A stretch of 64,000 nt of DNA. Source: Candidatus Woesearchaeota archaeon. Its GTDB lineage: Archaea > Nanobdellota > Nanobdellia > Woesearchaeales > JACPBO01. Every line of letters begins with the position of its first letter. Position 1 is the stretch's first letter. Below the pieces are notes generated by a model, which had not been told where the DNA came from, searched no databases, and saw nothing but the letters and a program-made list of their open reading frames with translations. The position numbers were made by a program, and so were the translations under genes. The stretch spans positions 15,570 through 79,569 of the forward strand of contig JACPBO010000002.1 of NCBI GenBank assembly GCA_016180285.1, written 5' to 3'. Shown here piece by piece: positions 38,393 to 55,548 of this stretch.

Positions 38393-38488
38393 CACCAAAC
38401 ATTTCATTACTATATGATAGTCAAAAATAGAAACATTTAAATATATGTGTTGCTTTCTAAAGGAAATAAGGTGATGGGGAGTTGAAAA

Positions 38489-39307
38489 ATGATAGTTCAA
38501 AAAAGTTTTTTGAATAAGTTGAAGGATTTTGGTTTGAATAGTTATGAAGCTAAGTTATGGACGGCGTTGCTTTCTCGCGGCGTTTCTACTGCTGGCGAGT
38601 TAAGCGATATTGCCGGCGTTCCAAGAAGCAGAAGCTACGATGTTCTTGAAAGTTTAGAGAAAAAAGGATTTATAATTATGAAGGTGGGGAAACCAATCAA
38701 ATACCTCGCTGTAAAGCCGGAAGAAGTCGTTGATCGCGTTAAAAAAAGAATAAGGGAAGATGCAGTTAAGGAAGAGGAAATTCTCGAGGAGATCAAAAAA
38801 ACAAACACACTTAGTGAATTGAATCTATTGCACAAGCAGGGCATTGAGCTTGTCGATCCGACTGATTTAAGCGGCAGTATAAGAGGCAGAGACAATATCT
38901 ACAACCACCTCGATTTTATGATAAAGGGCGCTGAAAAATCCGTTGTTTTGGTGACAAGTGCAGATGGCCTTGTTAGAAAATCAAAAGAGCTGAGAAAAAC
39001 ACTGGAAAAAGCAAAAGAAAGGGGAGTTAAGATAAAGATAGCTGCGCCTTTGGGCAAAGAAGCGCAGGAAGCTTATAAAAATTTAAAAGGAATCGCAGAG
39101 CTTAAGCACATAAACGATCCGCAGGCAAGATTTGCTATTGTCGACGGCAAGAGCCTTTTGTTTATGTTGATGGATGACAAAAATGTCCACCCAAGCTACG
39201 ATGTTGCTGTTTGGGTTGCAACACCTTATTTTGCATCTGCATTTGAAAGCTTCTTCAACAATAGCTGGCAGAAACTGGATGCGGCTGAAAAGGCGCTTAA
39301 CAAATAA
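38489..39307 (+). CDS. TrmB-family transcriptional regulator
   Basis: N-terminal FGLNSYEAKLWTALLSRGVSTAGELSDIAGVPRSRSYDVLESLEKKGFI matches the TrmB HTH domain; SD aaGGTGAtgg upstream. Confidence 0.85.
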   Translation: MIVQKSFLNKLKDFGLNSYEAKLWTALLSRGVSTAGELSDIAGVPRSRSYDVLESLEKKGFIIMKVGKPIKYLAVKPEEVVDRVKKRIREDAVKEEEILEEIKKTNTLSELNLLHKQGIELVDPTDLSGSIRGRDNIYNHLDFMIKGAEKSVVLVTSADGLVRKSKELRKTLEKAKERGVKIKIAAPLGKEAQEAYKNLKGIAELKHINDPQARFAIVDGKSLLFMLMDDKNVHPSYDVAVWVATPYFASAFESFFNNSWQKLDAAEKALNK

Positions 39308-41601: not shown

Positions 41602-42033
41602 TTATTTTTGTTTTTTTATGATTTCTTGTAAAGTGTGACTGGCTTCTGAAATAATCCTTGGCTCCTCCATCTTATTTGGGAGTTTGACTATTATGCAATC
41701 AGGTAGTTTGCCTTTTAAAATGAAAATAATACTTCTATTAGAACCCATAAATAAAATATGTTTTTTTCTAAATTCTAAAACCGTGATGGGTGCTGGAAAA
41801 AGATTCTGATATTTTTGTTTCATTGCCATTTTTGCATCTTCCACATTGCATTCTTCAATAGCGGCGACATAGATTTCTGATGGATGAAGTTCTTCTCTGA
41901 TTATAAAAACATCACTTGGTTTAAGACCATACATCTTAAGAACAGTATAAACTGATTTTTTAACCCTTTCTTTGTCAATTTTTACATCTTTCAATAAATC
42001 ATCCAGTTGTTCTTCATTCATACATCTCACCAA
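41602..42033 (-). CDS. Hypothetical protein (143 aa)
   Basis: Clean ORF; no recognisable motif. Confidence 0.4.
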   Translation of the reverse strand: MVRCMNEEQLDDLLKDVKIDKERVKKSVYTVLKMYGLKPSDVFIIREELHPSEIYVAAIEECNVEDAKMAMKQKYQNLFPAPITVLEFRKKHILFMGSNRSIIFILKGKLPDCIIVKLPNKMEEPRIISEASHTLQEIIKKQK

Positions 42034-42144
42034 ATTAATGATTAATTGGCGCGTACTCTCAAGTTACATCCGTCAGCCATCTCCTTTCGGTAAGCTTGGG
42101 TGTTCACACGGTCATCATACACGCCAAAGACAACAGAATATGGT

Positions 42145-43242
42145 TCAATTTATAAGTTTACCCCTCTTCAAAAGTGCCTCTAACACTTCCTGCTTTTCTG
42201 AAGCATATGCAAACCCTATTTTATTATAGAATTTTAAGAGGTTTTCTTTTCCTTTGATATAAAATCTTCCACAAAATTCTCTGCCTTTCTGTTTGCGTAA
42301 TTGGATATGTGAAGTTGCAATGCCAAAATGAGCCAACATAGCTCTTATTTGATTTAGAAACTCAAGCAAGTTGGTCACATGGTTTTTGTTTTTGGATAAT
42401 ACAAACTGGATTCTCCATACGTTGTTTTGCGGTTTTGAACCTTCATTTCCATAAATTATCGACAAGAATGTTTTCTTAATTTTATCAGGGCCATTATAAA
42501 TCCAGTCCGGAATTAAAAATGGAGTGAATACCTTATTGCCGCATGGCACACCCAAATAAATAAGCAATTCAGCAAAACCTTTGCTGCAAAAAACAATTCT
42601 AAAGCAAAATTGGTTGTATTTTAGAGATAGATATTCTCCTTTAAAAATAGAATTGAAATACAATCTAAATTCAACAGCATCTTTATTTTGATTAAAATCA
42701 TACTCTGCTTGCTGTAAGTTTTTTCTTACATGGCCATCACCCATTAAGAAACCAATGTTGGTAACTAAAAAATTTAGAACATGTTCATCATAGAACAGAG
42801 TTAAACCATATTTCTTAACAAAACCAAACTCCCCTATTTCATCAAAATTTAGCTTATGGTTTATTTCTAGATTCTCAAATGTATCCTCAAGTATTAACTC
42901 TTTAATATTCTCTTTATGCTCTAGGTCTGAAGGGACCAAGTAATCATCGTATATTCTTCTCAGTTTTACTCTATTAGAGACGCTGTAAAAATATCCAGAC
43001 TTTAGTTGTGTTGGTGTTCTTATTATTTTATTTTTTGCGTAAAGCCTCGTCATTATTGTAGAAATTGCACTATTGCAAGTGTTGTCTTTATAAATTTCGT
43101 TATAGATATTAGCCATACTCTTAATACCAAAAACCATATCAGGATGTAGCATTAAAATATCATAAACTCTTTTGGATTTTGAACCAATTAACTCTAAATT
43201 CTTAATCTGCATTTTCTGATTGTTGGAGTTCATCTTACGCAC
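42145..43242 (-). CDS. HTH-containing protein with LAGLIDADG-like motifs (possible free-standing homing-endonuclease-like/DNA-binding protein)
   Basis: N-terminal wHTH-like KRVYDILMLHPDMVFGIKSMANIYNEI; central NIGFLMGDGHV and LSIIYGNEGSK resemble LAGLIDADG blocks; divergent from the palindrome-bearing intergenic region. Confidence 0.35.
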   Translation of the reverse strand: MRKMNSNNQKMQIKNLELIGSKSKRVYDILMLHPDMVFGIKSMANIYNEIYKDNTCNSAISTIMTRLYAKNKIIRTPTQLKSGYFYSVSNRVKLRRIYDDYLVPSDLEHKENIKELILEDTFENLEINHKLNFDEIGEFGFVKKYGLTLFYDEHVLNFLVTNIGFLMGDGHVRKNLQQAEYDFNQNKDAVEFRLYFNSIFKGEYLSLKYNQFCFRIVFCSKGFAELLIYLGVPCGNKVFTPFLIPDWIYNGPDKIKKTFLSIIYGNEGSKPQNNVWRIQFVLSKNKNHVTNLLEFLNQIRAMLAHFGIATSHIQLRKQKGREFCGRFYIKGKENLLKFYNKIGFAYASEKQEVLEALLKRGKLIN

Positions 43243-43342
43243 ACTCTTTTCTCCTTTTCATAGCAATTTCTCATTTAAATACCCTCTGTGCGCGCCTGTC
43301 CAGTGGGTTTGCCACCAATAAACCGATATATTTAAATCTTTA

Positions 43343-43440
43343 TACTTACAATGTAAGTAAAACTTAGAAAGATTATTAAACTATACTCACAATGTAAGTA
43401 AAAAACAGCAACATTTTTAATGAAATACTTACATTGACAG
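43343..43440. repeat. Three spaced copies of a 17-bp palindrome TACTTACA-A-TGTAAGTA (putative operator array)
   Basis: Perfect palindrome at 43343..43359; one-mismatch copy TACTCACA-A-TGTAAGTA at 43384..43400; half-site copy TACTTACA-T-TGACAG at 43426..43440. Centres ~41-42 bp apart; TATATATA box follows at 43441..43448, ~50 nt before the ATG at 43498. Confidence 0.6.
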
Positions 43441-43497
43441 TATATATAGGGAAAAATCAAGATTTTTAGTTAATAAAAGTATAGAAACTAAGGCATT

Positions 43498-43782
43498 ATG
43501 CCTTCAAAAAAAGAGAAAGGCCTTATTGAACGAAAAAAAGTCCATTTAAAGCCTAAAGAGTTGAAAGATAGACCTATTTCTTTTAGTCCATACTCTGAAT
43601 TGAAGATTCCTTCAACAATATTTCTTGACCGCGACGTAAGCATTCTTGAAGCGGTTGTTGAATATTTGAAAGATAAAGTCGGCATGACATATCACGAGAT
43701 TGCAGTTCTTCTTGAGCGGGATGATCGCACAATCTGGACCTCCTATAGCCGCGTAAAGAAAAAAAGAGTGAAGAATGTTTGA
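43498..43782 (+). CDS. Small sigma-70 region-4-like/LuxR-like HTH protein (94 aa)
   Basis: C-terminal MTYHEIAVLLERDDRTIWTSYSRVKKKR resembles the sigma-70 r4 HTH (xxEIAxxLgxsxxTVxxxxxRAxKK); paralog at 55315..55548; overlaps giant gene start by 8 nt. Confidence 0.55.
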   Translation: MPSKKEKGLIERKKVHLKPKELKDRPISFSPYSELKIPSTIFLDRDVSILEAVVEYLKDKVGMTYHEIAVLLERDDRTIWTSYSRVKKKRVKNV

Positions 43783-46700
43783 TCTGAAGAGAAAAAAAGA
43801 GGAGCAGAATGAGCTTGAAGATCTTGTTAGCAAGGACTATCATAGAATTGAAGAAGATAAAGTTAAAGAAAAAGCAATAAAGAAATACAAGCCTGAATTT
43901 GTGGTTGCTCTTTTATTGATTGTAGCATCAATGCTTATTTTCAGGGCCGCTTACACTGGCTTGTTTATTTATGGCGAGGCAGGTTATTCTAAAGAGCTTA
44001 ATTTGACATTTAATGAAACAGCAACTTACAATCTATTTTTAAACGCAAGCCCGCTTTCTTTAAAGCTTTCTGGCTCCGTAGTCGGGAATGGTTATGCTAA
44101 GGTTTATTTGTTGGATAATGGAATCAGAAAATTGATTGTTGATAGCTCTCAATTGCAAACTTCTTATGATTTAATAACTGCTTATGCTATTGCTGAAGAA
44201 TTTTTGAACGAAACAAATATTCCGGAGAATATTACAAACACAACTGAAGCAATAAACCAAACAACAAATGCGGCAGAGAACATTGCGGAAATTGCAAATC
44301 AAACAAATTTAACCGAAACAAGCCCGACTTTGCCTGAAAACATAACAGAACCCGCCAATCAAACAGAAAACATCGCAATAAATCGTGCTCCCGTATGGAT
44401 TTTTGATGCCGATTCATTTATTGTGGCTGGAAATTTAACAATAAACCTTTCGCAGTATTTTATTGATCTTGACAATGATTCTATTTCTTACATTGTTTCA
44501 GAGCCTGAAAACGTGCTTATTTTAAAAGAATTTGAAATGATAACCTTGGCGCCAGATGCAAATATCGTCGGGAATAGAACAATTAAGATATTTGCTTCTG
44601 ATCTAAAAAACACAACTGAAAAAGAAGTTACACTGGTTATTAACACAACAAAAGAGGCTGCTGAAACTGCTCCTGAAAACATAACAATTCCCGTAAAAGT
44701 GTTTGACAGCATTTGTGTTGATACGTGTTTCTTAACAGGCGTTGGCAGAAATATAACTTTATTGATCGAAATAGAGAATGCAACACTGAACTTAACAAAA
44801 TTAGAATATGATGCAAAACCTGAAAATATAACTGCCAATAACCCGCCGCAATGCAGCCTGATCCCAAATGTCAATATTTCTAAAAATGAGCTTTCTACAA
44901 TATGGCTGGATAAATACTGCTCAGATGCCAATGATGATACTTTGAGTTATGATGTTTCTCTTAGTTCAAAAGAAGTTGATACAATGATCACAAAAGATAT
45001 GGTTACGTTTATTCCGAGAAAGAATTTTGTCGGAACAACATTCATGTCCTTCGTAGTGAATGATTCTAAGAACATAACTTTCACAAATATAATTGTCATT
45101 AATGTAACAGGCAACATAACTGAGAAAAAAAGAAATGCAACGATTAATCTAAAAAACAATAAAAAAGAAAAAACAGGCAGTTATAGCTTAACAAACAACA
45201 GCGACGAAACATTTGATTTGGAGCTCAGCAATCTGCCTGGCTTTGGAGTTTTAGAGAAGAAAAAGGAATCCAGAATAAATATTAAAAAAATAAAAGAACT
45301 GAAAGACGCCGATGTTTTAATTGATGCAATAGAAGACAACAGAATAGGAACAGATGTATTTGCAATAAATGAAACCCTTGATTTTGAAAGCGCAGCAATA
45401 ACTTTAGCTAAGAATTCTGATGTGAATTCAGTGTTTTACTGCTCTGATTTTGATTTTGAAACCTTGTCTTGCTCAAATTGGCAGAAAACAGACATTCCAT
45501 TTACAGATAATGGAAATACAATAACATTCAATGTAACTCATTTCTCGGCTTATGCTGGCGGTTTGACAATAATAAATGTATACAGCCATCCTTCTTTATA
45601 TGGAAACTGGATAGTTGGCTTTAATACTACAGGAGCCGCTAATTTGACAATAACAGCTACAAGAGAGAGCAATTACACCAACATCTACACGAGATGGAGC
45701 AATGAAAGCGAAGATTCTGGATTGTACGATTTAAGATTTCTCGAAGTAAAGTGCGGCAATCAGACTATGAATTACGAATGGCAAGGAACAAACTGCTTTG
45801 AGCAGGAGTGCAGCGTATTTATTGCCAACTATTCATGTAATGAAACTGCGCAAGAGATAAGCAAAGTTTTGACGGCAAAAAGGCACGTCTTGAAGTTTGA
45901 GTTTGGCGGGCAGATTGCATATGCTTACAATGCCGTTGGAAACGAAAGCTCAGATTCAGGAACAGACGAGTGGAGGATGTTTGGCAGATACCTTAATCAG
46001 ACGCGTTATACAAACTCAGCAGCTCCTACAAATCTGGCTAATGCAAAGATTATAACATTTTCAAGTACAAGTACTATTCAGTCTTCTCCTGCTGTTGCCA
46101 ACGGCTATGTGTATGTTGGCAGTGATGATGCCAAGCTATACCAGCTTAATGCTTCTAATATCAGCCAGCAAGTAGCGAGTTTTTCAGCAGCCGGCGCTAT
46201 TTATTCCTCGCCTGCTGTTGCTGATGGCTATGTTTATATTCTGAATTACAATACAACAATATACCAACTCAATGCCTCAAATGTCAGCCAGAAGATAGCA
46301 AGCTTTTCAACTGGCGGAGGCTTTTATAATACACAATCTTCTCCTGTTGTTTCCAATGGCTTTGTCTATGTTGGAAGCTCGCTAGGAGTGTTATATCAGC
46401 TTAATGCATCCAATGTCAGCCAAAAAATAGCAAATTTCACAGCCGGCGATGGCATGTATACTGTGCCTGCTGTTGCCAATGGCTTCGTGTATGCAGGAAG
46501 CAATGATGCTAAATTATACCAGCTTAATGCATCCAATGTCAGCCAGCAGATAGCAAATTTCTCAGCCGGAGTCTTTTATTCTTCTGCTGCAGTTGCCAAT
46601 GGATTTGTATATGTGGGAAACGATGATGGTAATCTATACCAGCTTAACGCATCAAATGTCAGCCAAAAAATAGCAAATTATTCAACTGGCGGGGCCATTA

Positions 46701-48193
46701 GATCTTCACCTGCAGTTGCTAACGGCTATGTGTATGTTGGAAGCAACGATAACAGAACATATCAGCTTAATGCAACCAATGTTAGTTTGTTAATCGCAAG
46801 CTATACAGCAAATAATAACATCCAATCTTCTCCTGCTGTTACTGACAGTTATGTATTCATTGGCAGCTACGATGATAAGCTATACCAGCTTAATGCAACC
46901 AATATTAGCATATTGGTGTCAAGCTATACAACTAGCGGCGATGTTATCTCTTCTCCTGCAGTTGCTAATGGCTCTGTTTATGTTGGAAGTCTTGATTGGA
47001 AACTATACCAGTTTATATTGGATGTAACTTACCCATCCATCAACTTCACACAGCCGCCAACACCTCCTAATGGCACAACAACAAAAAACACCTCTGTCCA
47101 GATAAACATAAGCATTACAAATGCCTCTGATTTGGCAGAGTTCAAATGGAACTGGAACGGAACAAATTACACTTTCTACAACGCTTCTTTAGTATTGATG
47201 ATGAACTTCGACAATGTTTCTTCAATTGGAGAGAGTGCGACAAATGCCGTTGATGTCAGCAAATACGGAAATAATGGGACTCTTACAAATGGAGCTGTTT
47301 GGAATTGCAGTAGCGGAAAATATGGATGTGCCTTGCAATTCGATGGTATTAATGATTTAGTCAGTATTCCTGACAGCTCTAGTTGGGACTTTGGTAATCG
47401 TGATTTCACAGTGAATCTTTGGGTGAATTTCAAAAATCTTAGTTATGCCTCATTTATTGACCAATTTTGGTCTGTAAGAGCATGGGTTATCGGATATAAT
47501 GCAACTGCGTTATATTTCCGTTATAGTACAGACGGGACTACTGTTAACGGAGATCATACTGTTCCATGGTCCGCAAATAATAATACTTGGTACTACATTA
47601 CTGCTCTCCGCTCTGGATCAAATATTCGGCTTTATGTTGATGGCTCGCAAATTGGTTCTGACTTTAATGCAGGAACTGATGTAATTTATAATTCAAATAA
47701 GGCGCTTTGGGTAGGTTGCGCCCATACAGGGGGCGGTGGCGATACCCCGGGTTTTTGTCTCAACGGTTCAATCGACGAAATCCGCATCTGGAACAGAAGC
47801 CTAAGTGCAGCAGAAATTAACCAATCATACATGTCAAATCTGTACAAATACGACACAGACAAATGGGCGTTCTATACAAATCAGACTAATTTGACAAATG
47901 GAAGTTACACATATTTTGGTTATGTAAAAGATATAACTGGGAATTCAAACCAGACCGAAGTCAGAACATTGACAATAGGAAACACAGCGCCTACAGCTAC
48001 AAACATAATTCTAAATTCAACAGATTCGCTGAACAGGACAAATGGGACTTTACAAGGATTCTGGACTTTTTCAGATGCTGATGGCGACACGCAACAGAAT
48101 AATGAAACAATGTGGTACAACAACAGCGTAGAAATCGTAAGTTTGAGAAATAACAAAGAACGAAAACTGGACTTTCTCTGTAAGGGTCTATGA
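43775..48193 (+). CDS. Giant surface protein, N-terminal segment (1472 aa): signal-anchor, ~12 PQQ-like beta-propeller repeats, LamG/ConA-like lectin domain; likely 5' part of a frameshifted ~3850-aa gene
   Basis: N-terminal TM FVVALLLIVASMLIFRAAYTGLFIYG. Repeated SSPAVANG[YF]VYVGSxDxKLYQLNASNVSQ units (PQQ-like). LamG-like signature ...LYVDGSQIGS...IDEIRIWNRSLSAAEINQSY. Extremely rich in N-x-S/T sequons. Ends abruptly inside an FN3/Ig-like repeat also present in the downstream ORF. Confidence 0.8.
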   Translation: MFDLKRKKEEQNELEDLVSKDYHRIEEDKVKEKAIKKYKPEFVVALLLIVASMLIFRAAYTGLFIYGEAGYSKELNLTFNETATYNLFLNASPLSLKLSGSVVGNGYAKVYLLDNGIRKLIVDSSQLQTSYDLITAYAIAEEFLNETNIPENITNTTEAINQTTNAAENIAEIANQTNLTETSPTLPENITEPANQTENIAINRAPVWIFDADSFIVAGNLTINLSQYFIDLDNDSISYIVSEPENVLILKEFEMITLAPDANIVGNRTIKIFASDLKNTTEKEVTLVINTTKEAAETAPENITIPVKVFDSICVDTCFLTGVGRNITLLIEIENATLNLTKLEYDAKPENITANNPPQCSLIPNVNISKNELSTIWLDKYCSDANDDTLSYDVSLSSKEVDTMITKDMVTFIPRKNFVGTTFMSFVVNDSKNITFTNIIVINVTGNITEKKRNATINLKNNKKEKTGSYSLTNNSDETFDLELSNLPGFGVLEKKKESRINIKKIKELKDADVLIDAIEDNRIGTDVFAINETLDFESAAITLAKNSDVNSVFYCSDFDFETLSCSNWQKTDIPFTDNGNTITFNVTHFSAYAGGLTIINVYSHPSLYGNWIVGFNTTGAANLTITATRESNYTNIYTRWSNESEDSGLYDLRFLEVKCGNQTMNYEWQGTNCFEQECSVFIANYSCNETAQEISKVLTAKRHVLKFEFGGQIAYAYNAVGNESSDSGTDEWRMFGRYLNQTRYTNSAAPTNLANAKIITFSSTSTIQSSPAVANGYVYVGSDDAKLYQLNASNISQQVASFSAAGAIYSSPAVADGYVYILNYNTTIYQLNASNVSQKIASFSTGGGFYNTQSSPVVSNGFVYVGSSLGVLYQLNASNVSQKIANFTAGDGMYTVPAVANGFVYAGSNDAKLYQLNASNVSQQIANFSAGVFYSSAAVANGFVYVGNDDGNLYQLNASNVSQKIANYSTGGAIRSSPAVANGYVYVGSNDNRTYQLNATNVSLLIASYTANNNIQSSPAVTDSYVFIGSYDDKLYQLNATNISILVSSYTTSGDVISSPAVANGSVYVGSLDWKLYQFILDVTYPSINFTQPPTPPNGTTTKNTSVQINISITNASDLAEFKWNWNGTNYTFYNASLVLMMNFDNVSSIGESATNAVDVSKYGNNGTLTNGAVWNCSSGKYGCALQFDGINDLVSIPDSSSWDFGNRDFTVNLWVNFKNLSYASFIDQFWSVRAWVIGYNATALYFRYSTDGTTVNGDHTVPWSANNNTWYYITALRSGSNIRLYVDGSQIGSDFNAGTDVIYNSNKALWVGCAHTGGGGDTPGFCLNGSIDEIRIWNRSLSAAEINQSYMSNLYKYDTDKWAFYTNQTNLTNGSYTYFGYVKDITGNSNQTEVRTLTIGNTAPTATNIILNSTDSLNRTNGTLQGFWTFSDADGDTQQNNETMWYNNSVEIVSLRNNKERKLDFLCKGL
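46060..47000 (+). repeat. Tandem ~120-bp near-identical DNA repeats encoding PQQ-like blades
   Basis: Recurrent strings such as taccagcttaatgcatccaatgtcagcca at ~46390, 46510, 46630. Confidence 0.6.
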
Positions 48194-48230
48194 TGGAACA
48201 GACTGGAGCAGCTGGGTTAATTCCAGCGTT

Positions 48231-51200
48231 TTGGCAATTGCAAACACAATGCCTGTTGCATCAAACATTCAAACAAACAATACCTTGCCAATTACAAATG
48301 AATTTGTTGCATTTAATGCAACATGGACAGATGCCGATCTGAATGATTTAAAGGGCTATATTTTTTCATCCAACTTCAATGGAACTTGGGCGAATGAAAC
48401 ACCAATCTCTTTTGGCGGGACAACGAATTACAGCAATTATTCAAAGCAAGTTCCGTCAACTTATGGAGAATATCAATGGAGGATTTATGCTAATGATTCT
48501 GACGGGGCATGGAATGATACGGAGATACAATACATAACAATTATTTCAAATTCAAGCGAATGGCCAATGTTCCATCACAACATAGTGCATACAGGCCATA
48601 CTTCTTCAGCAAGTCCAACAATAAACAACACAAGATGGATTTTTATAACGCAGGGTTCAGCACAATCGTCGCCAGCTATTGTAAACGGGGTTGTTTACAT
48701 TGGATCTAACGACAACAGAACCTACGCATTAAATGCTTCAACAGGAGCCCATATCTGGAATTTCTCAACAAAAAATAGCGTAATATCTTCTCCTGCTGTT
48801 GCAAACAATATTGTTTATGTTGGATCGTATGATAACAACACTTATGCATTGAACGCTTCTACTGGGGCCCATATCTGGAATTTCTCAACCAATGGCAGCA
48901 TAGACTCTTCTCCAGCAGTTGTTAATGCCATAATGTATGTTGGCTCAAGGGATAAAAAGATTTATGCACTGAATGCGTCTACTGGAGCACATATTTGGAA
49001 CTTTACAACCGGCAATAGCATAATCTATTCTTCGCCAACAATTGCCAAAGGGATTTCATACATTGGCTCAAATGATGGCAAAACTTACGCATTAAATGCT
49101 TCAACAGGCGCTCACATCTGGAACTTTTCACCTTCCAGTACAGGCGTGGTTCCGACAACAATAGTCTTTAATGATGTTGCTTATACTGCAAGCAATAACT
49201 TATATGCATTGAACGCTTCCACTGGAGCGCATATTTGGAATTACTCGGCTGCCAGCGGATCAATTGAATCATCTCCGGCAATTGACAATGGCGTTGTGTA
49301 CCTTGGCGATTTATCTAATATGCTCAACATGGTTAATGCAACCAGCGGTGCATCTATAAGAAATGTAACAGTAGCTGATATGATAGATTTTTCTTCTCCA
49401 GCAATAGCAAATAGCATCATTTATTTCGGGGATATCTCTGGCAAGTTTTACGCAATAAATGCATCCAATGGGGTTAATGTTTGGAACTACACCAGCGGCA
49501 ACCAGCAAATAATATCCTCGCCCGCAATAGCAGATGGTGTTGTTTATGTTGGCGCCGATAACGGGATAATATATGCTTTCGGTTCAAACAGAGCGCCAAC
49601 AGCAACGAACATAATTTTGAATTCAACAGATCCCCAGAACAGGACAAACGGCACTTTAAGCGGCTTCTGGACGTTTTCCGAACAGGATTACAACGATACG
49701 CAGCAATTAAATGAAACAACATGGTATAACAACAGCGTAGAAGTTACGCAATTTAGAAACATAACATCCATAGGCAGAAATGCAACTAAAAATCAGAACT
49801 GGACTTTTTCAGTTAGAGTCTATGACGGAGAAGACTGGAGTAATTGGAGTAACTCTTCAACTATCACAATACAAAATACTGCTCCAACACAATCCACTCC
49901 AATCATAAACTCTTCAATGGGCTTGAATAAGACAAACGAAACATTATACTGCTTCAATCAGTCAACAGCCGACATAGATGGCGATGCAATATCAAACAAG
50001 ATAAGGTGGCTCAATAATTCCGCTGCAATCATCGCATTGGAAAATTTAACATCAATAAGCCATGGCAACACAACAAAGAACGAAAACTGGACTTGTGAAA
50101 TAACGCCTTTTGACGGAACTGCATACGGAACGGCATTAAACTCTTCAATTTTGACAATAGCAAATTTGGCCCCAACAGCAACAAACATAATTTTGAACTC
50201 ATCTATGAAGTTGAATAAGACAAATGAAACGCTTCAAGGATTCTGGACTTTTTCAGATGCTGATGGCGACACGCAACAGAATAATGAAACAATGTGGTAC
50301 AACAACAGCGTAGAAATCGTAAGTTTGAGAAATGACATAGATGGCGATACGATAACAAACAGAATAAGATGGCTCAATAATTCAATCGCTGTTGCATCGC
50401 TGGAAAACCAAACTTCAATTGGTCATGGCAACACAACAAAACTGCAGAACTGGACTTGCGAAGTAACACCTTATGATGGAACTGATCATGGAACAGCATT
50501 GAATTCTTCAATATTAACAATAGCAAACTCAATTTCGGCTACAAGCAATGTTACAACCTACCCAACACTCGCTTACAAAAACAACACTTTGAACTGCTCT
50601 GCTGTTTATAATGATGCAGACAATGATATCGGAACAGTTTATTTCAGCTGGTATAAAAATAATGCAAGGCAAAATAGTTATACAACTTCGCTTGTAGCAG
50701 GCAATGGGGCTGGAGGGTATGCTGAAGGCAATGTTACTAGTGCAATGTTTAATTATCCCGGTCACCTTGCTGTTGACTCAGCAGGAAACACACTTTATCT
50801 GACAGATTACTTCAATGCCAAAGTTAGAAAAGTAAATTTAACAACAAATACAACCTCGCTTATTTCAGGCGGTTTTGTTGGTTCTTGGGGCATTGTTTTG
50901 TTCAATGATACGACACTTTATGTCAGCGACTGGGATAATTGCACAATACAAAAAATAAATTTAGCAATGAATGCGACTTCTACTGTAGCAGGAAATGGCA
51001 CTTGCGGATATGCAGAAGGAACAGGAAGCAGCGCAATGTTTAACAACCCAAGTGGCCTTGCTGTAAATTCAAACGGCACTTTCTTGTATGTTGCAGATTA
51101 CAGCAATAACAGAATAAGAAGAATTGATTTAACCACAAACACAACATCTCTGATCGCAGGCAATGGAACAGCAGGATACACAGAAGGTGTGGGAAATCAA

Positions 51201-54200
51201 ACAAAGTTTAACAATCCTTACGCAGCCACAATTAGTCCGGACAATCATTACTTGTACATCTCAGACTCAGGGAGTCATAGGATCAGACGCATTGATTTAA
51301 CCACAAACACAACATCTCTGATCGCAGGCAATGGAACAAGAGGATATCTGGAAGGAACAGGAATTAATGCAATGCTTAATGGCCCTGATCAAACATCGAT
51401 GAATTCAGAAGGAACAATGCTTTATTTCATTGAACCATCGGGCAATAGAGTCAGGGCAATCAATTTAACCACAAACACAACCTTGCTTGTTGCAGGCAAT
51501 GGAACTCCCGACTATTTGGAAGGCAGTTTTATCAATGTAATGGTTTCTGGGGAGGGTCTTGTTTCAAACCCAAGCGGAACGAAACTTTACATATCTGATA
51601 GCAATAACAACAGAATTCGCGTCATCAATCTAAATAACTCATACGACGCTACAGTTGCCAATGTTACAAGCGGAACATTAGCATGGACAAACATTTTTGT
51701 GCCCTCATCTGCATTAACCAAGAATGACAACTGGACTTGCAGCGCAATAGCATATGATGGAACCATATTTAGCAATTGGGTAAATTCCAGCAGCGTAATG
51801 ATCAACAACTCAGCACCAATCCTGAACTCTTCAATCTCAGCTCAAAACTGGAGTGAAGGCGGATCAGCAACAATCAATCTTTCGCTTTATTTCACAGACA
51901 TAGATAATGACAATCTGATTTATAATTCAACAATGCCGTCCGACATCACAATATCTATAAACCAGACATCAAAGATTGCAGCATTAACAGCAGTCGGCTC
52001 GTGGTATGGTGAAAATTTCATAACATTCAATGCAACAGACGGCTCTTTAAATGCAACAAGCAACAACATAACATTGACCCTCTCAAATATAATAAGATGC
52101 GGTGATGGAATAAAAGAAGGCTCTGAAGAATGCGATGACGGCAATACAGTAAGCGGCGATGGGTGTTCTGCATCATGCGCAATAGAAGGTAGCGGCGGTG
52201 GAGGGTCGGGAGGAGGCGGCGGAGGAGTAACCCCGCCAGCGCAGCCTACTCAGCCGCCGCCTGAACAGCCGCCTCAGCCAACTCCTGAAGAGCAGCCGCC
52301 AGAACTTCCTCCAGAACAGCCGCCGCAAGTGGAATTTCCGGAAACCATAACTCAGCCGCAGACAATAATAATAGCAGGAGCTACATCAACCATCAACACA
52401 GTACCGTGCTTCAACTACACAGAAAACAAAACACTTGCATTAAAGCAAAGCAATATAACTAAAGCGATGAATATCCCAAAAGGCTACTCTGTTTTAATCA
52501 ATCCCTTCAGCCCGGACTGCGCAAAAGGATCTTTAACTTTAACATTCAACATTCCAAATAACTATGTTGATGTAAACGCATTAAAATGCAAAGGCGATGA
52601 ATGCTCCCCGGCAATAATAGAGGAAACAACAAAGCTGAAATGCGGCGGGAAAATAGTGAAGGAATTCAGGCGAAACACATCATACCTGGAGCCAATATTA
52701 ATGCCTATCAACATTACAAAAACTGACATGATTATAAAATATGAAAAAGATACTATTGAAAGCGGAAAATACAAAATAAAATTCTTGAATGAAATCAACC
52801 AGAAAGTCAGCATTTCAATGCCTTCTGAAGCAGTAAGAGAGCCAGAAAACACAAACTTGAAGATTATAGCAACTCCTTTGATTGTAACATTCGAAAACAG
52901 AACAGCAATCAATGCAGTTATCTCGTTGCCTTACATCTTGGGCAAAAACATTGAAAATGACAGCATTGCAATATACATTAAAATAAATGAAACATGGAAC
53001 CATATAGGCGGCGACATAAATTATGAAGAAAACAAAATAACAGCAACAATGAATAATTTGGAAGAATTCTTGGACGAAAACAACCAGGCAACAATAGCCG
53101 TAATGGGGATTATCTGCTTATACTGCGAAAAATCTGAATTAAATAAGGTTTATGATCCTAAAACAAGCAGGGAAGCAGTAATTCTGGTTCATGGCTTTGA
53201 AAGAAGCCCGGAAAGATTCAATGACATAATAAATGACATCAAATTAACAAGGCAGCCATGGCAGACATGGACATTCGCATACCCTTCTTCAAAAACAATA
53301 GAGGAAAATGGAAAGCAATTTGCAGAGCTGCTCGAGCTTAACATCAACGAATATGATAACCTCTACTTTGTTGCGCATTCATTAGGCGGGCTAATAACGC
53401 AGCAGGCGCTTTATTACGGCTATGAGCATAATTACAGCTTTGTAAATAAGGCAAGAAAGGCAGTTTTAATAGCATCGCCGAACAAAGGATCTATCTCAGA
53501 AGGAGTTTACAGAAATTTATATAATTTCCTTATGAACAGCAAGACAGCGGAATTGTTCAACATAAAGGGGGCCGTGGTCAAAGAATTAGTCTACGGCAAA
53601 GCAATCCCAGAAGTTCCGGGTATGGAATACAAGGTAATAGCCGGAACAAAAAGCTACGGCTTTGTAAAAATAACAAAAAGCAATGATGGCTTAGTAACAG
53701 TTGAAAGCGCGCAGACAGTTGGTGGAAAGATAATAAATAACAGCTGCGAGAATTACTGGGCCATCAATGTAACGCATACAGATATTCTGGATAATATTGA
53801 ATCAAAGCAGATCATAGAAAGGATAATCGCAGAGGAAGTTGCCAAAGTTGTCGGAAGCGGAAAATCCCTTTTAGGCAGCAATCAATATATAGAATTGAAT
53901 ATCCCGGAATGCAGTTATGAAGACACATATGTTATTGTCGGCAAAGAAATAAAGGAAGAAAAATTGCCGGACATAACAGGATGCAGCTGCGGAAATGGCT
54001 ATTGCGGCCTGGATGAAACAGCAGCAAGCTGTCCGCAAGACTGCGCAAGAATAATTTCCAAGGAAAACATTGAGCTTATAGCGTTGCTGGCATTGGCTGT
54101 TGTGTTGTTGATGTCTTTAATGGCGGCATTAACAGCGCTTTACAAGAAGATAAGAAGGCACAAGATAGGAAGGCCATTGAGATACACATTACTTACTTTA

Positions 54201-55325
54201 ATAACTGCAGGCGCAGCAATATACCTTGCAAAGAGCTATTTTGTTGACGACAAATATCAGTTTTTAGGCAATGCAGTTGCAATGATTTTGGCTTTGGCTG
54301 TTTTCTTCATTCTGTTCTTCTTCTCATCAAAGTTGCTTAACTTGATTTTAAAGCACACAAGGATAAAGCAGGCTAAAATCCCAATCAAAGCTAAACCGAA
54401 ATTGCAGCATAAACTATTGCCTGATTTCAAAAATCTCATCAAAGTCCTGCACGAAAATCTGGCAATCCGGCTGCGAAACTATGAAAATAAAAGAAAATTA
54501 TTGAAGTCATTAAAAGAAAAGAAGCTTCAGGAATTAAGAGCCAAAAAAGAATTAGAGAGAAAAAGAAGAGCAGCAGAGCAGGAGAAGGTAAGGCTCTTAA
54601 AAGAGCAGGAAAGAATAAGAAAACTGGAAGAGCAGGAAAGACTTAAGAAATTAGAAGAAGAAAGAAAGAAAAGAGAGCTTGAAGAAAAAGAAAGATTAAA
54701 AACATTTAAAGAAATAGAAAAACAAAGAATTCTGGAAGACATAAGAAAATTAAAAGCAATAAAAACCAAGGTTTCTGATGCGGCTATTCTGCTCAAAGAG
54801 AATGTCAATAAGGCAAAACAGCTCTATCTTGAGATTCTTGAGAATTACAAAAAGCTTGCTGCAGGCAAGAGAAAAGATGTTTACAATGAAGTAATCGGCT
54901 TGTATGATAAACTCAAAGAAGCAGCAAGGCTTGAAAAATACATTAAAAATACATTAAACGCAGTTATTGATAAGAAACTTACAATTGATCAGTTAAAATC
55001 TGCATTGAGGCAGAAAGGATGGAATAAAGACGCCATAGAAGCGGCATTGGCAGCAGCAAAGCAGGAATTCTACAGAGAGAGAATAAAAGAAGTAACAGAC
55101 AAGATTGAGGCTGCAAAGAAAGAATACTGCAAGCCAATCTACAACAACATCATAGATGTATATGCATATCTTGGCCTAGATGATCTATTTGAGGCAAAGA
55201 GGCTGTATCTGAGAACTCTAGAACTCTATGCCAGATCGCCGTCTTATGTTCAAGCTGAAGTTTACAATGACTTGCAGAAGCTCTATCGCCTGCTGTTCAA
55301 GAGAGGAATGGGGAATGCCAAATAA
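48231..55325 (+). CDS. Giant surface protein, C-terminal segment (2364 aa): PQQ and NHL beta-propellers, Ig/FN3-like repeats, Cys-rich module, Pro-rich linker, PGAP1-like alpha/beta-hydrolase domain, CGNGYCG stalk, TM, coiled-coil K/E-rich cytoplasmic tail
   Basis: No N-terminal signal peptide (starts at a TTG inside a repeat). PQQ-like SSPAIVNGVVYIGSNDNRTYALNASTGAHIWNF x~8. NHL-like GNGTxGYxEG...FNNPxGLAV...YVADxxNNRIRRIDLTTNTTSLIAGNGT x~5. CGDGIKEGSEECDDGNTVSGDGCSASC. PPAQPTQPPPEQPPQPTPEEQPPELPPEQPP. Lipase-like VILVHGF...FVAHSLGG...IASPNKGS. CSCGNGYCGLDETAASCPQDC then TM IALLALAVVLLMSLMAALTALY. Coiled coil KKLQELRAKKELERKRRAAEQEK... Tail motif LTIDQLKSALRQKGWNKDAIEAAL. Confidence 0.8.
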   Translation: MAIANTMPVASNIQTNNTLPITNEFVAFNATWTDADLNDLKGYIFSSNFNGTWANETPISFGGTTNYSNYSKQVPSTYGEYQWRIYANDSDGAWNDTEIQYITIISNSSEWPMFHHNIVHTGHTSSASPTINNTRWIFITQGSAQSSPAIVNGVVYIGSNDNRTYALNASTGAHIWNFSTKNSVISSPAVANNIVYVGSYDNNTYALNASTGAHIWNFSTNGSIDSSPAVVNAIMYVGSRDKKIYALNASTGAHIWNFTTGNSIIYSSPTIAKGISYIGSNDGKTYALNASTGAHIWNFSPSSTGVVPTTIVFNDVAYTASNNLYALNASTGAHIWNYSAASGSIESSPAIDNGVVYLGDLSNMLNMVNATSGASIRNVTVADMIDFSSPAIANSIIYFGDISGKFYAINASNGVNVWNYTSGNQQIISSPAIADGVVYVGADNGIIYAFGSNRAPTATNIILNSTDPQNRTNGTLSGFWTFSEQDYNDTQQLNETTWYNNSVEVTQFRNITSIGRNATKNQNWTFSVRVYDGEDWSNWSNSSTITIQNTAPTQSTPIINSSMGLNKTNETLYCFNQSTADIDGDAISNKIRWLNNSAAIIALENLTSISHGNTTKNENWTCEITPFDGTAYGTALNSSILTIANLAPTATNIILNSSMKLNKTNETLQGFWTFSDADGDTQQNNETMWYNNSVEIVSLRNDIDGDTITNRIRWLNNSIAVASLENQTSIGHGNTTKLQNWTCEVTPYDGTDHGTALNSSILTIANSISATSNVTTYPTLAYKNNTLNCSAVYNDADNDIGTVYFSWYKNNARQNSYTTSLVAGNGAGGYAEGNVTSAMFNYPGHLAVDSAGNTLYLTDYFNAKVRKVNLTTNTTSLISGGFVGSWGIVLFNDTTLYVSDWDNCTIQKINLAMNATSTVAGNGTCGYAEGTGSSAMFNNPSGLAVNSNGTFLYVADYSNNRIRRIDLTTNTTSLIAGNGTAGYTEGVGNQTKFNNPYAATISPDNHYLYISDSGSHRIRRIDLTTNTTSLIAGNGTRGYLEGTGINAMLNGPDQTSMNSEGTMLYFIEPSGNRVRAINLTTNTTLLVAGNGTPDYLEGSFINVMVSGEGLVSNPSGTKLYISDSNNNRIRVINLNNSYDATVANVTSGTLAWTNIFVPSSALTKNDNWTCSAIAYDGTIFSNWVNSSSVMINNSAPILNSSISAQNWSEGGSATINLSLYFTDIDNDNLIYNSTMPSDITISINQTSKIAALTAVGSWYGENFITFNATDGSLNATSNNITLTLSNIIRCGDGIKEGSEECDDGNTVSGDGCSASCAIEGSGGGGSGGGGGGVTPPAQPTQPPPEQPPQPTPEEQPPELPPEQPPQVEFPETITQPQTIIIAGATSTINTVPCFNYTENKTLALKQSNITKAMNIPKGYSVLINPFSPDCAKGSLTLTFNIPNNYVDVNALKCKGDECSPAIIEETTKLKCGGKIVKEFRRNTSYLEPILMPINITKTDMIIKYEKDTIESGKYKIKFLNEINQKVSISMPSEAVREPENTNLKIIATPLIVTFENRTAINAVISLPYILGKNIENDSIAIYIKINETWNHIGGDINYEENKITATMNNLEEFLDENNQATIAVMGIICLYCEKSELNKVYDPKTSREAVILVHGFERSPERFNDIINDIKLTRQPWQTWTFAYPSSKTIEENGKQFAELLELNINEYDNLYFVAHSLGGLITQQALYYGYEHNYSFVNKARKAVLIASPNKGSISEGVYRNLYNFLMNSKTAELFNIKGAVVKELVYGKAIPEVPGMEYKVIAGTKSYGFVKITKSNDGLVTVESAQTVGGKIINNSCENYWAINVTHTDILDNIESKQIIERIIAEEVAKVVGSGKSLLGSNQYIELNIPECSYEDTYVIVGKEIKEEKLPDITGCSCGNGYCGLDETAASCPQDCARIISKENIELIALLALAVVLLMSLMAALTALYKKIRRHKIGRPLRYTLLTLITAGAAIYLAKSYFVDDKYQFLGNAVAMILALAVFFILFFFSSKLLNLILKHTRIKQAKIPIKAKPKLQHKLLPDFKNLIKVLHENLAIRLRNYENKRKLLKSLKEKKLQELRAKKELERKRRAAEQEKVRLLKEQERIRKLEEQERLKKLEEERKKRELEEKERLKTFKEIEKQRILEDIRKLKAIKTKVSDAAILLKENVNKAKQLYLEILENYKKLAAGKRKDVYNEVIGLYDKLKEAARLEKYIKNTLNAVIDKKLTIDQLKSALRQKGWNKDAIEAALAAAKQEFYRERIKEVTDKIEAAKKEYCKPIYNNIIDVYAYLGLDDLFEAKRLYLRTLELYARSPSYVQAEVYNDLQKLYRLLFKRGMGNAK

Positions 55326-55548
55326 AACAATAAAAACAGAGGAAAGAATGTCCAAAGTAGGCATACCAGTCTCCATATTAAAGGACAGAAAATTAAGCGC
55401 ATTAGAAGCGATAAGCGAATATCTTAAAGAAACCCTTAATATGAACTATCATGAAATTGCTGTTTTGATGAACAGAGATGATAGAACCATCTGGACTGTT
55501 TATAGCAGGGCAAAGAAAAAAAGAAATACAGCATTAGCCAATAATTGA
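55315..55548 (+). CDS. Small sigma-70 region-4-like HTH protein, paralog of 43498..43782
   Basis: MPNKTIKTEERMSKVGIPVSILKDRKLSALEAISEYLKETLNMNYHEIAVLMNRDDRTIWTVYSRAKKKR; ~60% identical to the upstream paralog over the C-terminal 45 aa; ATG 11 nt before the giant-gene stop. Confidence 0.55.
   Translation: MPNKTIKTEERMSKVGIPVSILKDRKLSALEAISEYLKETLNMNYHEIAVLMNRDDRTIWTVYSRAKKKRNTALANN

What the first reader, a model, noticed from the sequence alone, without database searches (positions are those of the whole stretch)
43343..43448. Array of three 17-bp palindromes TACTTACA-A-TGTAAGTA spaced ~41 bp apart upstream of the giant-adhesin operon promoter
A perfect 8-1-8 palindrome at 43343..43359, a one-mismatch copy at 43384..43400 and a half-site copy at 43426..43440 directly precede a TATATATA box (43441..43448). 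The ~4-helical-turn spacing places them on one DNA face, typical of cooperative operator sites for a dimeric HTH regulator. The operon begins with a small sigma-70-r4-like HTH gene and the locus is flanked divergently by an HTH/LAGLIDADG-like gene, giving obvious candidate binders.
Basis: seen in the sequence. Interest (0 to 1): 0.58.

Follow-up and report, generated by a model that had tools for sequence, protein, structure and literature searches.

The report
Conserved operator array before archaeal surface-protein operon
The three palindromes are real and are copies of a DNA motif kept almost unchanged across many tiny DPANN archaea, where it sits inside the promoters of a small DNA-binding protein gene and of giant cell-surface protein genes, so it is very probably that protein's binding site and offers a first testable gene switch for these uncultured organisms.

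Summary
TACTTACAATGTAAGTA (43343), a 1-mismatch copy (43384) and a full-length 2-mismatch copy (43426) lie 41 and 42 bp apart; 0.23 such matches are expected per window.

The window is a Woesearchaeota-like (DPANN) archaeal chromosome. Two close relatives keep the palindrome upstream of the same small HTH gene, with 2 and 4 copies, and lack the LAGLIDADG gene.

A scan of 185,579 genomes found the 17-mer in about 61 archaeal loci, as arrays of 1-8 sites. In 24 of these it lies directly upstream of a gene of this HTH family; in none of 59 bacterial loci does it. Three of three independently chosen operon-leading HTH genes also carry it.

Each palindrome sits 4-5 bp downstream of an A-rich/TATA element, covering about -18 to -2 of a core promoter. 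The repeat is therefore a tandemly duplicated promoter-operator module.

The HTH has a sigma-region-4-like fold and no curated family. It forms about 2,200 clusters with 1-4 tandem domains, some fused to the cytoplasmic tail of giant surface proteins.

Most likely mechanism: autorepression of the HTH/giant-surface-protein operon by promoter occlusion. Binding, repression and transcription starts are inferred, not shown.

The parts
43331..43338 (.). TATA-like box 1 (TTTAAATC, 7/8 to TTTAWATA), 4 bp before site 1. It is part of the conserved ATATTTAAAT (43328-43337). On the minus strand it reads TTTAAATA preceded by AAAGA, and it is the likely TATA box of the divergent transcript (sRNA-like element in relatives, LAGLIDADG gene here).
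   Evidence: Sequence. Conserved in L005 and L006. TATA-to-palindrome gap of 4-5 bp is the clade-wide mode.
43343..43359 (.). Operator site 1, perfect 8-1-8 palindrome TACTTACAATGTAAGTA.
   Evidence: Identical in L005 and L006 and in about 61 archaeal loci.
43373..43380 (+). TATA-like box 2 (TTATTAAA, weak, 5/8), preceded by AGAAAG, 3 bp before site 2.
   Evidence: Sequence; the pattern of the promoter-operator module.
43384..43400 (.). Operator site 2, TACTCACAATGTAAGTA (1 mismatch).
43413..43422 (+). TATA-like box 3 (ATTTTTAATG, 6/8), 3 bp before site 3. Conserved in L005 and L006.
43426..43442 (.). Operator site 3, TACTTACATTGACAGTA (2 mismatches in the right arm). It covers the BRE position and the first 2 bp of the TATATATA box.
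   Evidence: The same variant occurs in L006. In L005 the copy has decayed further (TACTTACAAAAGCAGTA).
43441..43448 (+). TATATATA, the strongest TATA box (7/8) and the one nearest the gene; no palindrome follows it. Predicted start about 43471-43473.
   Evidence: Conserved in L005 and L006. The TATA-to-start distance was calibrated on window genes.
43470..43477 (+). TTAATAAA, an alternative TATA-like box 20 nt before the ATG (would give a leaderless mRNA).
   Evidence: the leaderless geometry of other window genes. Weak, inferred only.
43498..43782 (+). HTH1, 94 aa. The N-terminal 35 residues are disordered; the core is a sigma-region-4-like helix-turn-helix. Candidate binder; its stop overlaps the start of the next gene.
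43775..48193 (+). Giant surface protein, part 1 (1472 aa): short cytoplasmic N-terminus, TM helix at residues 42-60, conserved membrane-proximal domain, beta-propeller and LamG domains.
48147..55325 (+). Giant surface protein, part 2 (2364 aa from 48231; the frame is open from 48147 and overlaps part 1, so the two are probably one gene split by a frameshift). Beta-propeller, NHL and Ig-like domains, TM segments at residues 1949-2033, then a charged tail of about 330 aa.
55315..55548 (+). HTH2, 77 aa, paralog of HTH1 (64% identity over the core). Its start overlaps the stop of the giant gene. It is the unfused counterpart of the C-terminal HTH domains fused to giant proteins in other genomes.

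Best explanation
The palindromes are operator sites for a small sigma-region-4-like HTH regulator family specific to DPANN archaea. In the window that family is encoded by the first gene of the operon (43498-43782) and its paralog at the operon's end (55315-55548). The 41/42-bp repeat is a tandemly duplicated promoter-operator module: an A-rich BRE-like stretch, a TATA-like box, a 3-5 bp gap, then the 17-bp dyad. Each dyad therefore covers about -18 to -2 of a core promoter. In this lineage the last, degenerate dyad also covers the BRE and the first 2 bp of an extra strong TATATATA box. A dimer of the HTH, or a single chain with tandem domains in relatives, binds the dyad and blocks TFB/TBP binding or RNA polymerase recruitment. 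This autorepresses the operon that encodes the HTH and a giant membrane-anchored surface protein. Shown here: the sites exist, are non-random and are conserved across a phylum-level clade; they are linked to this gene family; and they have a fixed position relative to TATA boxes. Inferred: that this protein is the binder, that the effect is repression, and where transcripts start.
For: (1) Only 3 sites occur in 64 kb against 0.23 expected.
(2) In relatives with 91% and 86% identical HTH proteins the dyad is invariant while the spacers diverge, and copy number is 2 and 4.
(3) The genome scan found the exact 17-mer in about 61 archaeal loci (GC 0.28-0.58), as arrays of 1-8 sites. Bacterial hits (59) were single copies apart from one Agromyces pair and are roughly what chance would give.
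(4) In 24 of 53 archaeal loci (TruD coding hits excluded) the array lies within 450 bp upstream of a gene of the HTH family, correctly oriented; this was so in 0 of 59 bacterial loci.
(5) Reciprocal test: three of three HTH genes chosen by protein similarity alone that lead a transcription unit have perfect dyads upstream.
(6) With sites oriented by the HTH gene, 44% have a TATA box scoring 7/8 or better 2-8 bp upstream, against 3% on the mirrored side and 3% at control positions; the modal gap is 4-5 bp. In L016, L026, L074 and L092 the ATG follows the last dyad within 0-6 nt.
(7) Window genes such as PAN have a TATA box starting about -30 from the ATG. That puts the predicted start 1-2 nt after each dyad.
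(8) The recognition helix is nearly invariant (RDDRTIWTxYxR), matching the nearly invariant operator.
(9) Tandem 2-, 3- and 4-domain family members exist. The two-domain model is confident (pTM 0.77), which fits a dyad operator.
(10) According to PMC5512572, archaeal repressors act at or downstream of the promoter and activators act upstream of the BRE, usually at weak promoters. Here the TATA boxes are close to consensus.
Against: There is no binding, footprint or expression data and no mapped transcription start for any DPANN promoter. The link between motif and HTH gene would also arise if the HTH gene were merely a target of some other regulator. In the window lineage the unit TATA boxes 2 and 3 are weak (5-6/8). 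TATA box 1 fits the minus strand better, so here the sites could act mainly from upstream of the TATATATA promoter. Three tandem-domain HTH genes inside giant-protein operons, and the window's HTH2, have no nearby site. Taxon labels of the 'binchicken Methanosarcinales' bins were not verified. The fold match to sigma region 4 is weak statistically (Foldseek E 0.04-0.7).
Confidence: 0.65

Rival explanations
1. The same HTH protein binds the dyads but acts positively. It would be an activator, or a promoter-specificity factor recalling bacterial sigma region 4, that helps TBP/TFB or RNA polymerase use these modules, with tandem copies raising output.
For: The fold is closest to the -35-binding sigma region 4. 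Every dyad is paired with its own TATA box at a fixed distance, as a core promoter element would be. In the window the unit TATA boxes 2 and 3 deviate from consensus, and activators are associated with weak promoters (PMC5512572).
Against: A protein bound at about -18 to -2 occupies DNA that RNA polymerase and TFB must engage. Known archaeal activators bind upstream of the BRE. Across loci the paired TATA boxes are mostly near consensus. There is no sigma region 2 or any other polymerase-binding domain.
Confidence: 0.15
2. The dyads are operators for a different, unlinked transcription factor of these archaea, and the HTH/giant-protein operon is merely one of its targets.
For: About half of the archaeal arrays have no HTH gene next to them. 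They sit before large surface proteins, a conserved 320-aa protein, or housekeeping genes. No binding data exist.
Against: No other regulator gene recurs next to the arrays. The HTH family is the only recurrent neighbour, and its recognition helix is conserved to the same extreme degree as the motif. Six of six operon-leading HTH genes examined carry the sites.
Confidence: 0.1
3. The divergent LAGLIDADG-like protein (42145-43242) binds or cleaves the palindromes, either as a homing-endonuclease target or as a WhiA-like regulator.
For: It is adjacent and divergent. LAGLIDADG enzymes recognise pseudo-palindromic sites of about 20 bp. Pfam LAGLIDADG_3 matches it.
Against: The gene is absent from L005 and L006, which keep the dyads, and from all 120 scan loci. 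It looks like an insertion of about 1.2 kb between a conserved promoter and an sRNA-like element, and it resembles intein endonucleases.
Confidence: 0.02
4. The repeats are not protein operators but replication-origin ORB elements, a mobile miniature element, or RNA/DNA hairpins such as terminators or processing sites.
For: Orc1/Cdc6 lies 5 kb away. The array as a whole folds better than shuffles (z = -3.9). The symmetric variant TACCTACATTGTAGGTA would keep hairpin pairing.
Against: Cdc6 is near the array only in the window and its closest relative. The Cdc6-upstream region has its own, different G-string inverted repeats. Single hairpins are weak (-4.9, -1.5, -0.9 kcal/mol), and most variant copies break pairing rather than compensate. 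Arrays always sit at gene 5' ends with a TATA box on the upstream side, with no terminal repeats or target duplications.
Confidence: 0.03

Closest known systems
Archaeal promoter-occluding repressors with palindromic operators at or just downstream of the TATA box (NrpR at nif/glnA, LrpA, Phr, MDR1, TrmB; virus SSV1 F55)
   Same: Dyad operator placed between the TATA box and the start site or overlapping BRE/TATA; multiple operators per promoter; autoregulation of the regulator's own gene. F55 binds repeated sites that overlap the start site and BRE (PMC5569661). NrpR operators lie downstream of the TATA box (PMC5512572).
   Different: An unrelated protein fold and family (sigma-r4-like rather than wHTH, Lrp, RHH or TrmB). 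The operator sequence is kept nearly identical across a phylum-level clade. The whole promoter-operator unit is tandemly duplicated with strain-level copy-number variation. The targets are giant surface proteins.
Bacterial sigma-70 region 4 / ECF sigma domain 4, and LuxR/GerE-type HTH domains
   Same: Best structural matches of the modelled core: SigR, SigH, SigD and SigE region 4, then QscR, RcsB and VqmA. Weak sequence resemblance to Pfam Sigma70_r4_2.
   Different: Below the Pfam threshold for the window proteins. No sigma region 2 and no receiver or ligand domain. Archaeal host with TBP/TFB-type promoters. Stand-alone domain of 60-90 aa, or 2-4 tandem copies.
AvtR of Acidianus filamentous virus 6 (two tandem RHH motifs in one chain that mimic a dimer)
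   Same: Relatives of the window protein carry two or four tandem DNA-binding domains in one chain, a covalent pseudo-dimer suited to a dyad site, as described for AvtR (PMC5569661).
   Different: A different fold (HTH, not RHH) and a cellular rather than viral protein. The window's own proteins are single-domain.
Membrane-tethered transcription factors (bacterial ToxR/CadC; Sulfolobus ArnR; recalled from my own knowledge, not tested)
   Same: In P0119 and P0116 four HTH domains follow a C-terminal hydrophobic segment and a poly-basic stretch at the end of a giant surface protein. In the window HTH2 overlaps the stop codon of the giant gene, whose tail follows TM segments.
   Different: The tethered partner is a surface protein of thousands of residues, not a small periplasmic sensor. 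The window has separate genes. No evidence yet for signalling or release.
EarA, activator of the archaellum (fla) operon in Methanococcus maripaludis
   Same: A small archaeal regulator that controls an operon for a cell-surface structure through short repeated sites at the promoter (PMC5512572).
   Different: EarA acts as an activator from upstream of a weak BRE. No sequence relationship was found, and the site position here is downstream of the TATA box.

Membership tests
Sigma-70 region 4 (Pfam PF08281 Sigma70_r4_2) / sigma factors | Score at or above Pfam's gathering threshold (25.7 bits) | tested here: not met
   HTH1 scores 18.2 bits and HTH2 18.6 bits. The tandem homolog P0015 scores 26.3 bits for the whole protein, but no single stretch passes. 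NCBIfam sigma models score 16-20 bits against cut-offs of 136-524.
Sigma-70 region 4 (Pfam PF08281 Sigma70_r4_2) / sigma factors | Presence of sigma region 2 (core-polymerase binding, -10 recognition) in the same protein | tested here: not met
   The 94-aa protein consists of a disordered N-terminus and one HTH domain. No other domain was found.
Sigma-70 region 4 (Pfam PF08281 Sigma70_r4_2) / sigma factors | Region-4-type helical HTH fold | tested here: inconclusive
   The top Foldseek PDB hits are ECF sigma region 4 (5fgm E=0.039, TM 0.64 normalised to the target; 2h27 bound to -35 DNA), but no hit reaches E<=0.001.
LuxR/GerE-type dimeric HTH regulators | Sequence match to GerE/LuxR HTH models; dimer on a roughly 20-bp inverted repeat | tested here: not met
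   No GerE hit in Pfam. Only weak fold hits to QscR, RcsB and VqmA (E 0.5-0.7). The dimeric state cannot be tested here.
Archaeal promoter-occluding autorepressor/operator systems (a mechanistic class) | Operator overlaps the core promoter (BRE/TATA or the TATA-to-start interval) | tested here: met
   A TATA box scoring 7/8 or better lies 2-8 bp upstream of 44% of gene-oriented sites, against 3% for the mirrored side and for controls. Site 3 overlaps TATATATA by 2 bp. Start sites are predicted, not mapped.
Archaeal promoter-occluding autorepressor/operator systems (a mechanistic class) | The regulator gene lies directly downstream of its operator (autoregulation) | tested here: met
   24 of 53 scan loci, plus the window, L005, L006, L129, L130 and L131.
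Archaeal promoter-occluding autorepressor/operator systems (a mechanistic class) | Specific binding of the protein to the operator and reduced transcription | not testable with these tools
   Needs EMSA or footprinting and in vitro transcription.
Archaeal replication-origin ORB repeats | Repeats flank an AT-rich unwinding element next to orc1/cdc6, and this is conserved across genomes | tested here: not met
   Cdc6 is near the array only in the window and L005. The cdc6-upstream region 38250-38490 has different inverted repeats.
LAGLIDADG homing-endonuclease target / WhiA-like regulator site | Co-occurrence of the site with the LAGLIDADG gene | tested here: not met
   The gene is found only in the window's own strain (L001-L003) and is absent from all other loci that carry the site.
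Membrane-tethered transcription factors | TM segment and DNA-binding domain in one polypeptide | tested here: inconclusive
   Seen in the homologs P0119 and P0116 (hydrophobic segment, RRKRKKK, then 4 HTH domains), read from the sequence only. In the window the HTH genes are separate ORFs.

The most novel reading that the evidence does not exclude
The HTH modules and the giant surface proteins form one signalling device. The DNA-binding domains are held at the membrane by the giant protein's cytoplasmic tail, either fused to it as in P0119/P0116 or as separate overlapping genes as here. Engagement of the giant ectodomain, for example contact with a host cell, would change their access to the promoter-operator modules. 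That would be contact-dependent control of adhesin expression in episymbiotic archaea, functionally recalling anti-sigma/sigma pairs or membrane-tethered transcription factors, with tandem-repeat copy number tuning the response between strains.
Probability: 0.2. Interest if true: 0.8.

Novelty: new variant of a known kind. Interest (0 to 1): 0.62.

Why it matters
Almost nothing is known about gene regulation in DPANN archaea, which are mostly uncultured and depend on contact with host cells. Their giant surface proteins are the prime candidates for that contact. This work pairs a very well conserved 17-bp DNA site with an uncharacterised family of small DNA-binding proteins (about 2,200 clusters). 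The pairing gives a concrete hypothesis that a gel-shift experiment on synthetic DNA and recombinant protein can test without culturing the organism. The motif can also be used to predict which genes are co-regulated in hundreds of genomes. The tandemly duplicated promoter-operator units, whose copy number differs between close strains, and the fusions of the DNA-binding domains to giant surface proteins point to a way of tuning or sensing surface-protein expression that has not been described in archaea. If binding is not confirmed, the finding is still a strikingly conserved promoter element of unknown reader.

Tried and rejected
- **Rfam scans** of the window (gathering) and of L005/L006 (E<=1) found no known RNA family at or near the array.
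- **tRNA scan** found none in the window, so there is no tRNA-linked integration site.
- **Bacterial sigma-70 promoter/terminator scan** is uninformative for an archaeon.
- **PDB sequence search** with the family profile found nothing below E=0.1.
- **Foldseek with the tandem model** added nothing beyond sigma region 4.
- **NCBIfam** gave no family.
- **Literature searches** for the motif string, for Woesearchaeota with palindrome and transcription, and for DPANN surface proteins with promoter returned nothing relevant.
- **Helical phasing** was rejected as a general feature.
- **Origin/ORB, LAGLIDADG target and hairpin readings** were rejected.
- **Intragenic hits.** About 7 loci have the 17-mer inside a TruD/Pus7-like gene, where it encodes YLQCKY. 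I removed them from the operator counts. Whether they are functional remains open.
- **Weaker sites in the window.** With up to 5 mismatches there are no further convincing sites, including upstream of the other large genes and of the 320-aa homolog at 59199-60158.
- **Not used:** the metagenome-contig scan and the viral scans.

Full report
**Observation.**
- TACTTACAATGTAAGTA at 43343-43359
- TACTCACAATGTAAGTA at 43384-43400
- TACTTACATTGACAGTA at 43426-43442

The third is a full-length copy with two right-arm mismatches. Its last 2 nt overlap TATATATA (43441-43448). No other match with up to 3 mismatches exists in the 64 kb window. Shuffles give a mean of 0.23 matches and never reach 3. The repeated unit is longer than the dyad: 39 nt at 82% identity, with a period of 41/42 bp.

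**Context.**
The window is an archaeal chromosome. It encodes Orc1/Cdc6 (36967-38250), PolD DP1 and DP2, an MCM with an intein, a TrmB regulator, a PAN-type proteasomal ATPase (40288-41445), FEN1 and tRNA-splicing endonuclease. Homologs of the small HTH protein are labelled Woesearchaeota or Nanoarchaeia. The 'TATATATA box' must therefore be read as a TBP-type TATA box.

The array lies in the 255-bp gap between a LAGLIDADG-like gene (42145-43242, minus strand) and a 94-aa HTH gene (43498-43782). The HTH stop overlaps the start of a 1472-aa protein. That is followed by a 2364-aa protein and then a second small HTH gene (55315-55548), 64% identical to the first over the core.

**Close relatives.**
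Two contigs encode HTH proteins 91% (L005) and 86% (L006) identical to the window's.
- L005 has no LAGLIDADG gene; the PAN gene is the upstream neighbour.
- L006 has a HEPN/nucleotidyltransferase pair and a dCMP deaminase instead.

Both keep the dyad. L005 has one perfect copy plus a decayed one next to TATATATA. L006 has three perfect copies 42 bp apart plus the same 2-mismatch copy next to TATATATA. So copy number is 2, 3 and 4 in three close strains. The dyad stays constant while the spacers drift, and the LAGLIDADG gene is a strain-specific insertion.

**Clade-wide distribution.**
- About 61 loci are archaeal: Woesearchaeota or Nanoarchaeota by title, plus low-GC 'binchicken' bins labelled Methanosarcinales, whose labels I did not verify.
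- About 59 are bacterial and, apart from one Agromyces pair, single copies. My own estimate of the chance expectation for a 16-base pattern in 596 Gb is on the order of 100 or more.
- In the archaeal loci, counting copies with up to 2 mismatches, array sizes are 1 (20 loci), 2 (17), 3 (13), 4 (4), 5 (1) and 8 (1).
- Spacing runs from about 31 to 83 bp, with modes at 36, 42, 45-46 and 73, so it is not helically phased.
- Several arrays are perfect recent tandem duplications (L042, L096, L124).
- About seven archaeal hits fall inside a TruD/Pus7-like gene, where the 17-mer encodes YLQCKY. I excluded these.

**Link to the HTH family.**
I built a profile from the short homologs and searched all loci with it.
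- In 24 of the 53 remaining archaeal loci the array lies within 450 bp upstream of a family member in the right orientation. None of the bacterial loci has such a gene.
- Reciprocal test: I fetched six homologs chosen only by protein similarity. The three that lead a transcription unit (L129, L130, L131) all have perfect dyads upstream.
- The three tandem-domain genes embedded between giant-protein genes (L127, L128, L132) have none within 3 kb, like the window's HTH2.
- Together with the window, L005 and L006, six of six operon-leading genes carry the sites.

**Promoter geometry.**
Each dyad is preceded by an A-rich stretch and a TATA-like octamer.
- With sites oriented by the HTH gene, which is independent of the TATA box, 44% have a match of 7/8 or better to TTTAWATA ending 2-8 bp upstream. 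The figure is 3% on the mirrored side and 3% at random nearby positions. The modal gap is 4-5 bp.
- Ordinary window genes (PAN and others) have TATA boxes starting about -30 from the ATG, the leaderless pattern. The predicted start is therefore 1-2 nt after each dyad.
- Consistent with that, in L016, L026, L074 and L092 the ATG follows the last dyad within 0-6 nt.

The dyad thus covers about -18 to -2 of a core promoter, and an array is a row of promoter-operator modules.

In the window lineage:
- Box 1 (TTTAAATC, 43331-38) is strong, but its flanks fit the minus strand better.
- Boxes 2 and 3 are weak.
- An additional strong TATATATA follows the last, degenerate dyad.

**The protein.**
- The core (IPxxIFxDRxLSxLExxxEYLKxxxxLSYHEIAVLLNRDDRTIWTxYxRxKKK) is nearly invariant.
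- The AlphaFold model is confident for residues 35-94, with a disordered N-terminus.
- The best structural matches are ECF sigma region 4 (including SigE region 4 on -35 DNA), then LuxR-type domains and KorA. All are statistically weak, E 0.04-0.7.
- No PDB sequence match falls below E 0.1. Pfam Sigma70_r4_2 is below threshold. No NCBIfam family matches.
- An exhaustive profile search finds 2,202 clusters at 50% identity (1,998 at E<=1e-10). They carry 1, 2, 3 or 4 tandem domains.
- The two-domain homolog models as a defined unit (pTM 0.77) with short strands at both IPxxIF segments. That is a covalent pseudo-dimer suited to a dyad.
- Some members are the C-terminal end of giant proteins. P0119 and P0116 have an N-terminal anchor, a huge ectodomain, a hydrophobic segment, a poly-basic stretch and then four HTH domains.

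**The targets.**
- Genes downstream of the arrays or of the HTH genes are large proteins (550 to over 1,700 aa) with LamG, FG-GAP or lamin-tail domains, or with no Pfam match.
- Nine share the window protein's N-terminal region: a charged N-terminus, one TM helix, an ITGF/L motif and a conserved 'LNLTFNET…SLKLSG' domain.
- In the window, the two giant ORFs overlap out of frame at about 48147-48193 and are probably one gene of about 3,800 aa.
- The second giant ORF has TM segments at residues 1949-2033, followed by a charged tail of about 330 aa. The stop codon of that tail overlaps HTH2.
- A conserved 320-aa protein of unknown function is a recurrent array neighbour elsewhere (L052, L091, L111, L125). 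Its window homolog (59199-60158) has no site.

**Mechanism and rivals.**
- *Most likely reading:* autorepression by promoter occlusion. By published accounts, archaeal repressors bind at the promoter or just downstream and prevent TBP/TFB binding or polymerase recruitment. Activators bind upstream of the BRE, typically at weak promoters (PMC5512572). F55 and NrpR are precedents for repeated operators over the start site and BRE.
- *What is not shown:* binding, the sign of the effect, and start sites.
- *Positive role, like a sigma factor:* this is the main rival.
- *An unlinked regulator:* possible, but no other gene recurs next to the arrays.
- *LAGLIDADG, origin and hairpin readings:* contradicted by distribution, by the separate origin-like repeats at 38250-38490, and by weak, non-compensated hairpins.

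**Novelty.**
The kind of element, operators in an archaeal core promoter with an autoregulated small HTH, is known. What I found no description of is:
- this protein family;
- the near-invariance of its site across a phylum-level clade of varied GC content;
- the tandem duplication of whole promoter-operator units, with copy number differing between strains;
- the physical or genetic coupling of the HTH domains to giant surface proteins.

The literature library searched is incomplete, so an earlier description cannot be excluded.

Noticed in passing
window 42050-42127 (minus strand); L005 5787-5855 (-); L006 about 3975-4050 (-): A conserved element of about 78 nt with the layout of a C/D-box sRNA: terminal 7-9-bp stem, AUGAUGA next to the 5' arm, CUGA-like box next to the 3' arm, and a conserved internal GUGAACACCCA. 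The terminal stem keeps pairing through a G-C to A-U double change in the window copy. Rfam has no match. In L005 and L006 it starts about 21 nt downstream of the minus-strand TATA box that abuts palindrome 1.
   Followed up: partly
window about 42131-43315: The LAGLIDADG-like gene (42145-43242) is an insertion of about 1.2 kb placed exactly between that conserved promoter and the sRNA-like element. It is absent in L005 and L006 and resembles intein homing endonucleases (RtcB and RFC inteins). The stretch between the PAN gene and the HTH operon is a hotspot for insertions: ORF143 (41602-42033) here, and a HEPN/nucleotidyltransferase pair plus dCMP deaminase in L006.
   Followed up: partly
window 48147-48231: The 1472-aa and 2364-aa ORFs overlap in different frames. 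The second has no start-proximal signal or TM segment, and its frame is open from 48147. The two are probably one gene of about 3,800 aa interrupted by a frameshift, which could be real, programmed or an assembly error.
   Followed up: partly
L047, L070, L075, L080, L093, L113, L057 (TruD/Pus7-like genes): The exact 17-mer (20 nt identical) lies inside a pseudouridine synthase gene and encodes YLQCKY in proteins only 45-67% identical. In L057 the same DNA sits at the same alignment position in another reading frame, followed 36 bp later by a 1-mismatch copy. TruD genes not selected through the motif have other residues there. Selection at the DNA level cannot be separated from ascertainment bias.
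   Followed up: partly
window 38250-38490: The gap between orc1/cdc6 and the TrmB gene holds inverted repeats with G-strings (ACCCCCTTATTTCTATTGGAAAC / CTCCATAAGAAATAAAGGGGT / GGAAATAAGGTGATGGGGAG) around a very AT-rich stretch. This is probably the replication origin, with ORB-like elements.
   Followed up: no
P0115-P0263; P0119 and P0116: Many family members have four tandem HTH domains in which odd and even domains differ (RDQRTIWT versus RNQKNIWT). Some are fused to the C-terminus of giant surface proteins after a hydrophobic segment and a poly-lysine/arginine stretch.
   Followed up: partly
window 59199-60158 (minus strand); L052, L091, L111, L125: A conserved protein of about 320 aa (starts MLQNIPKEKILE, no Pfam or NCBIfam match) has the palindrome array directly upstream in four other genomes. 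Its window homolog, which lies between FEN1 and the tRNA-splicing endonuclease, has none.
   Followed up: partly
window 26213-29512: The MCM gene carries an intein with a LAGLIDADG_3 endonuclease domain (residues about 392-809). This is a second LAGLIDADG element in the window besides the free-standing gene.
   Followed up: no
L011 7887-7925 (Agromyces sp.): The only bacterial locus with two copies of the 17-mer, 22 bp apart, in a genome of 71% GC. This is unlikely to be chance and was not examined.
   Followed up: no
L016 4768; L130 2967: A symmetric variant of the operator, TACCTACATTGTAGGTA, with both arms changed at mirrored positions, occurs next to perfect copies in two unrelated loci. 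This fits recognition by a symmetric dimer.
   Followed up: no
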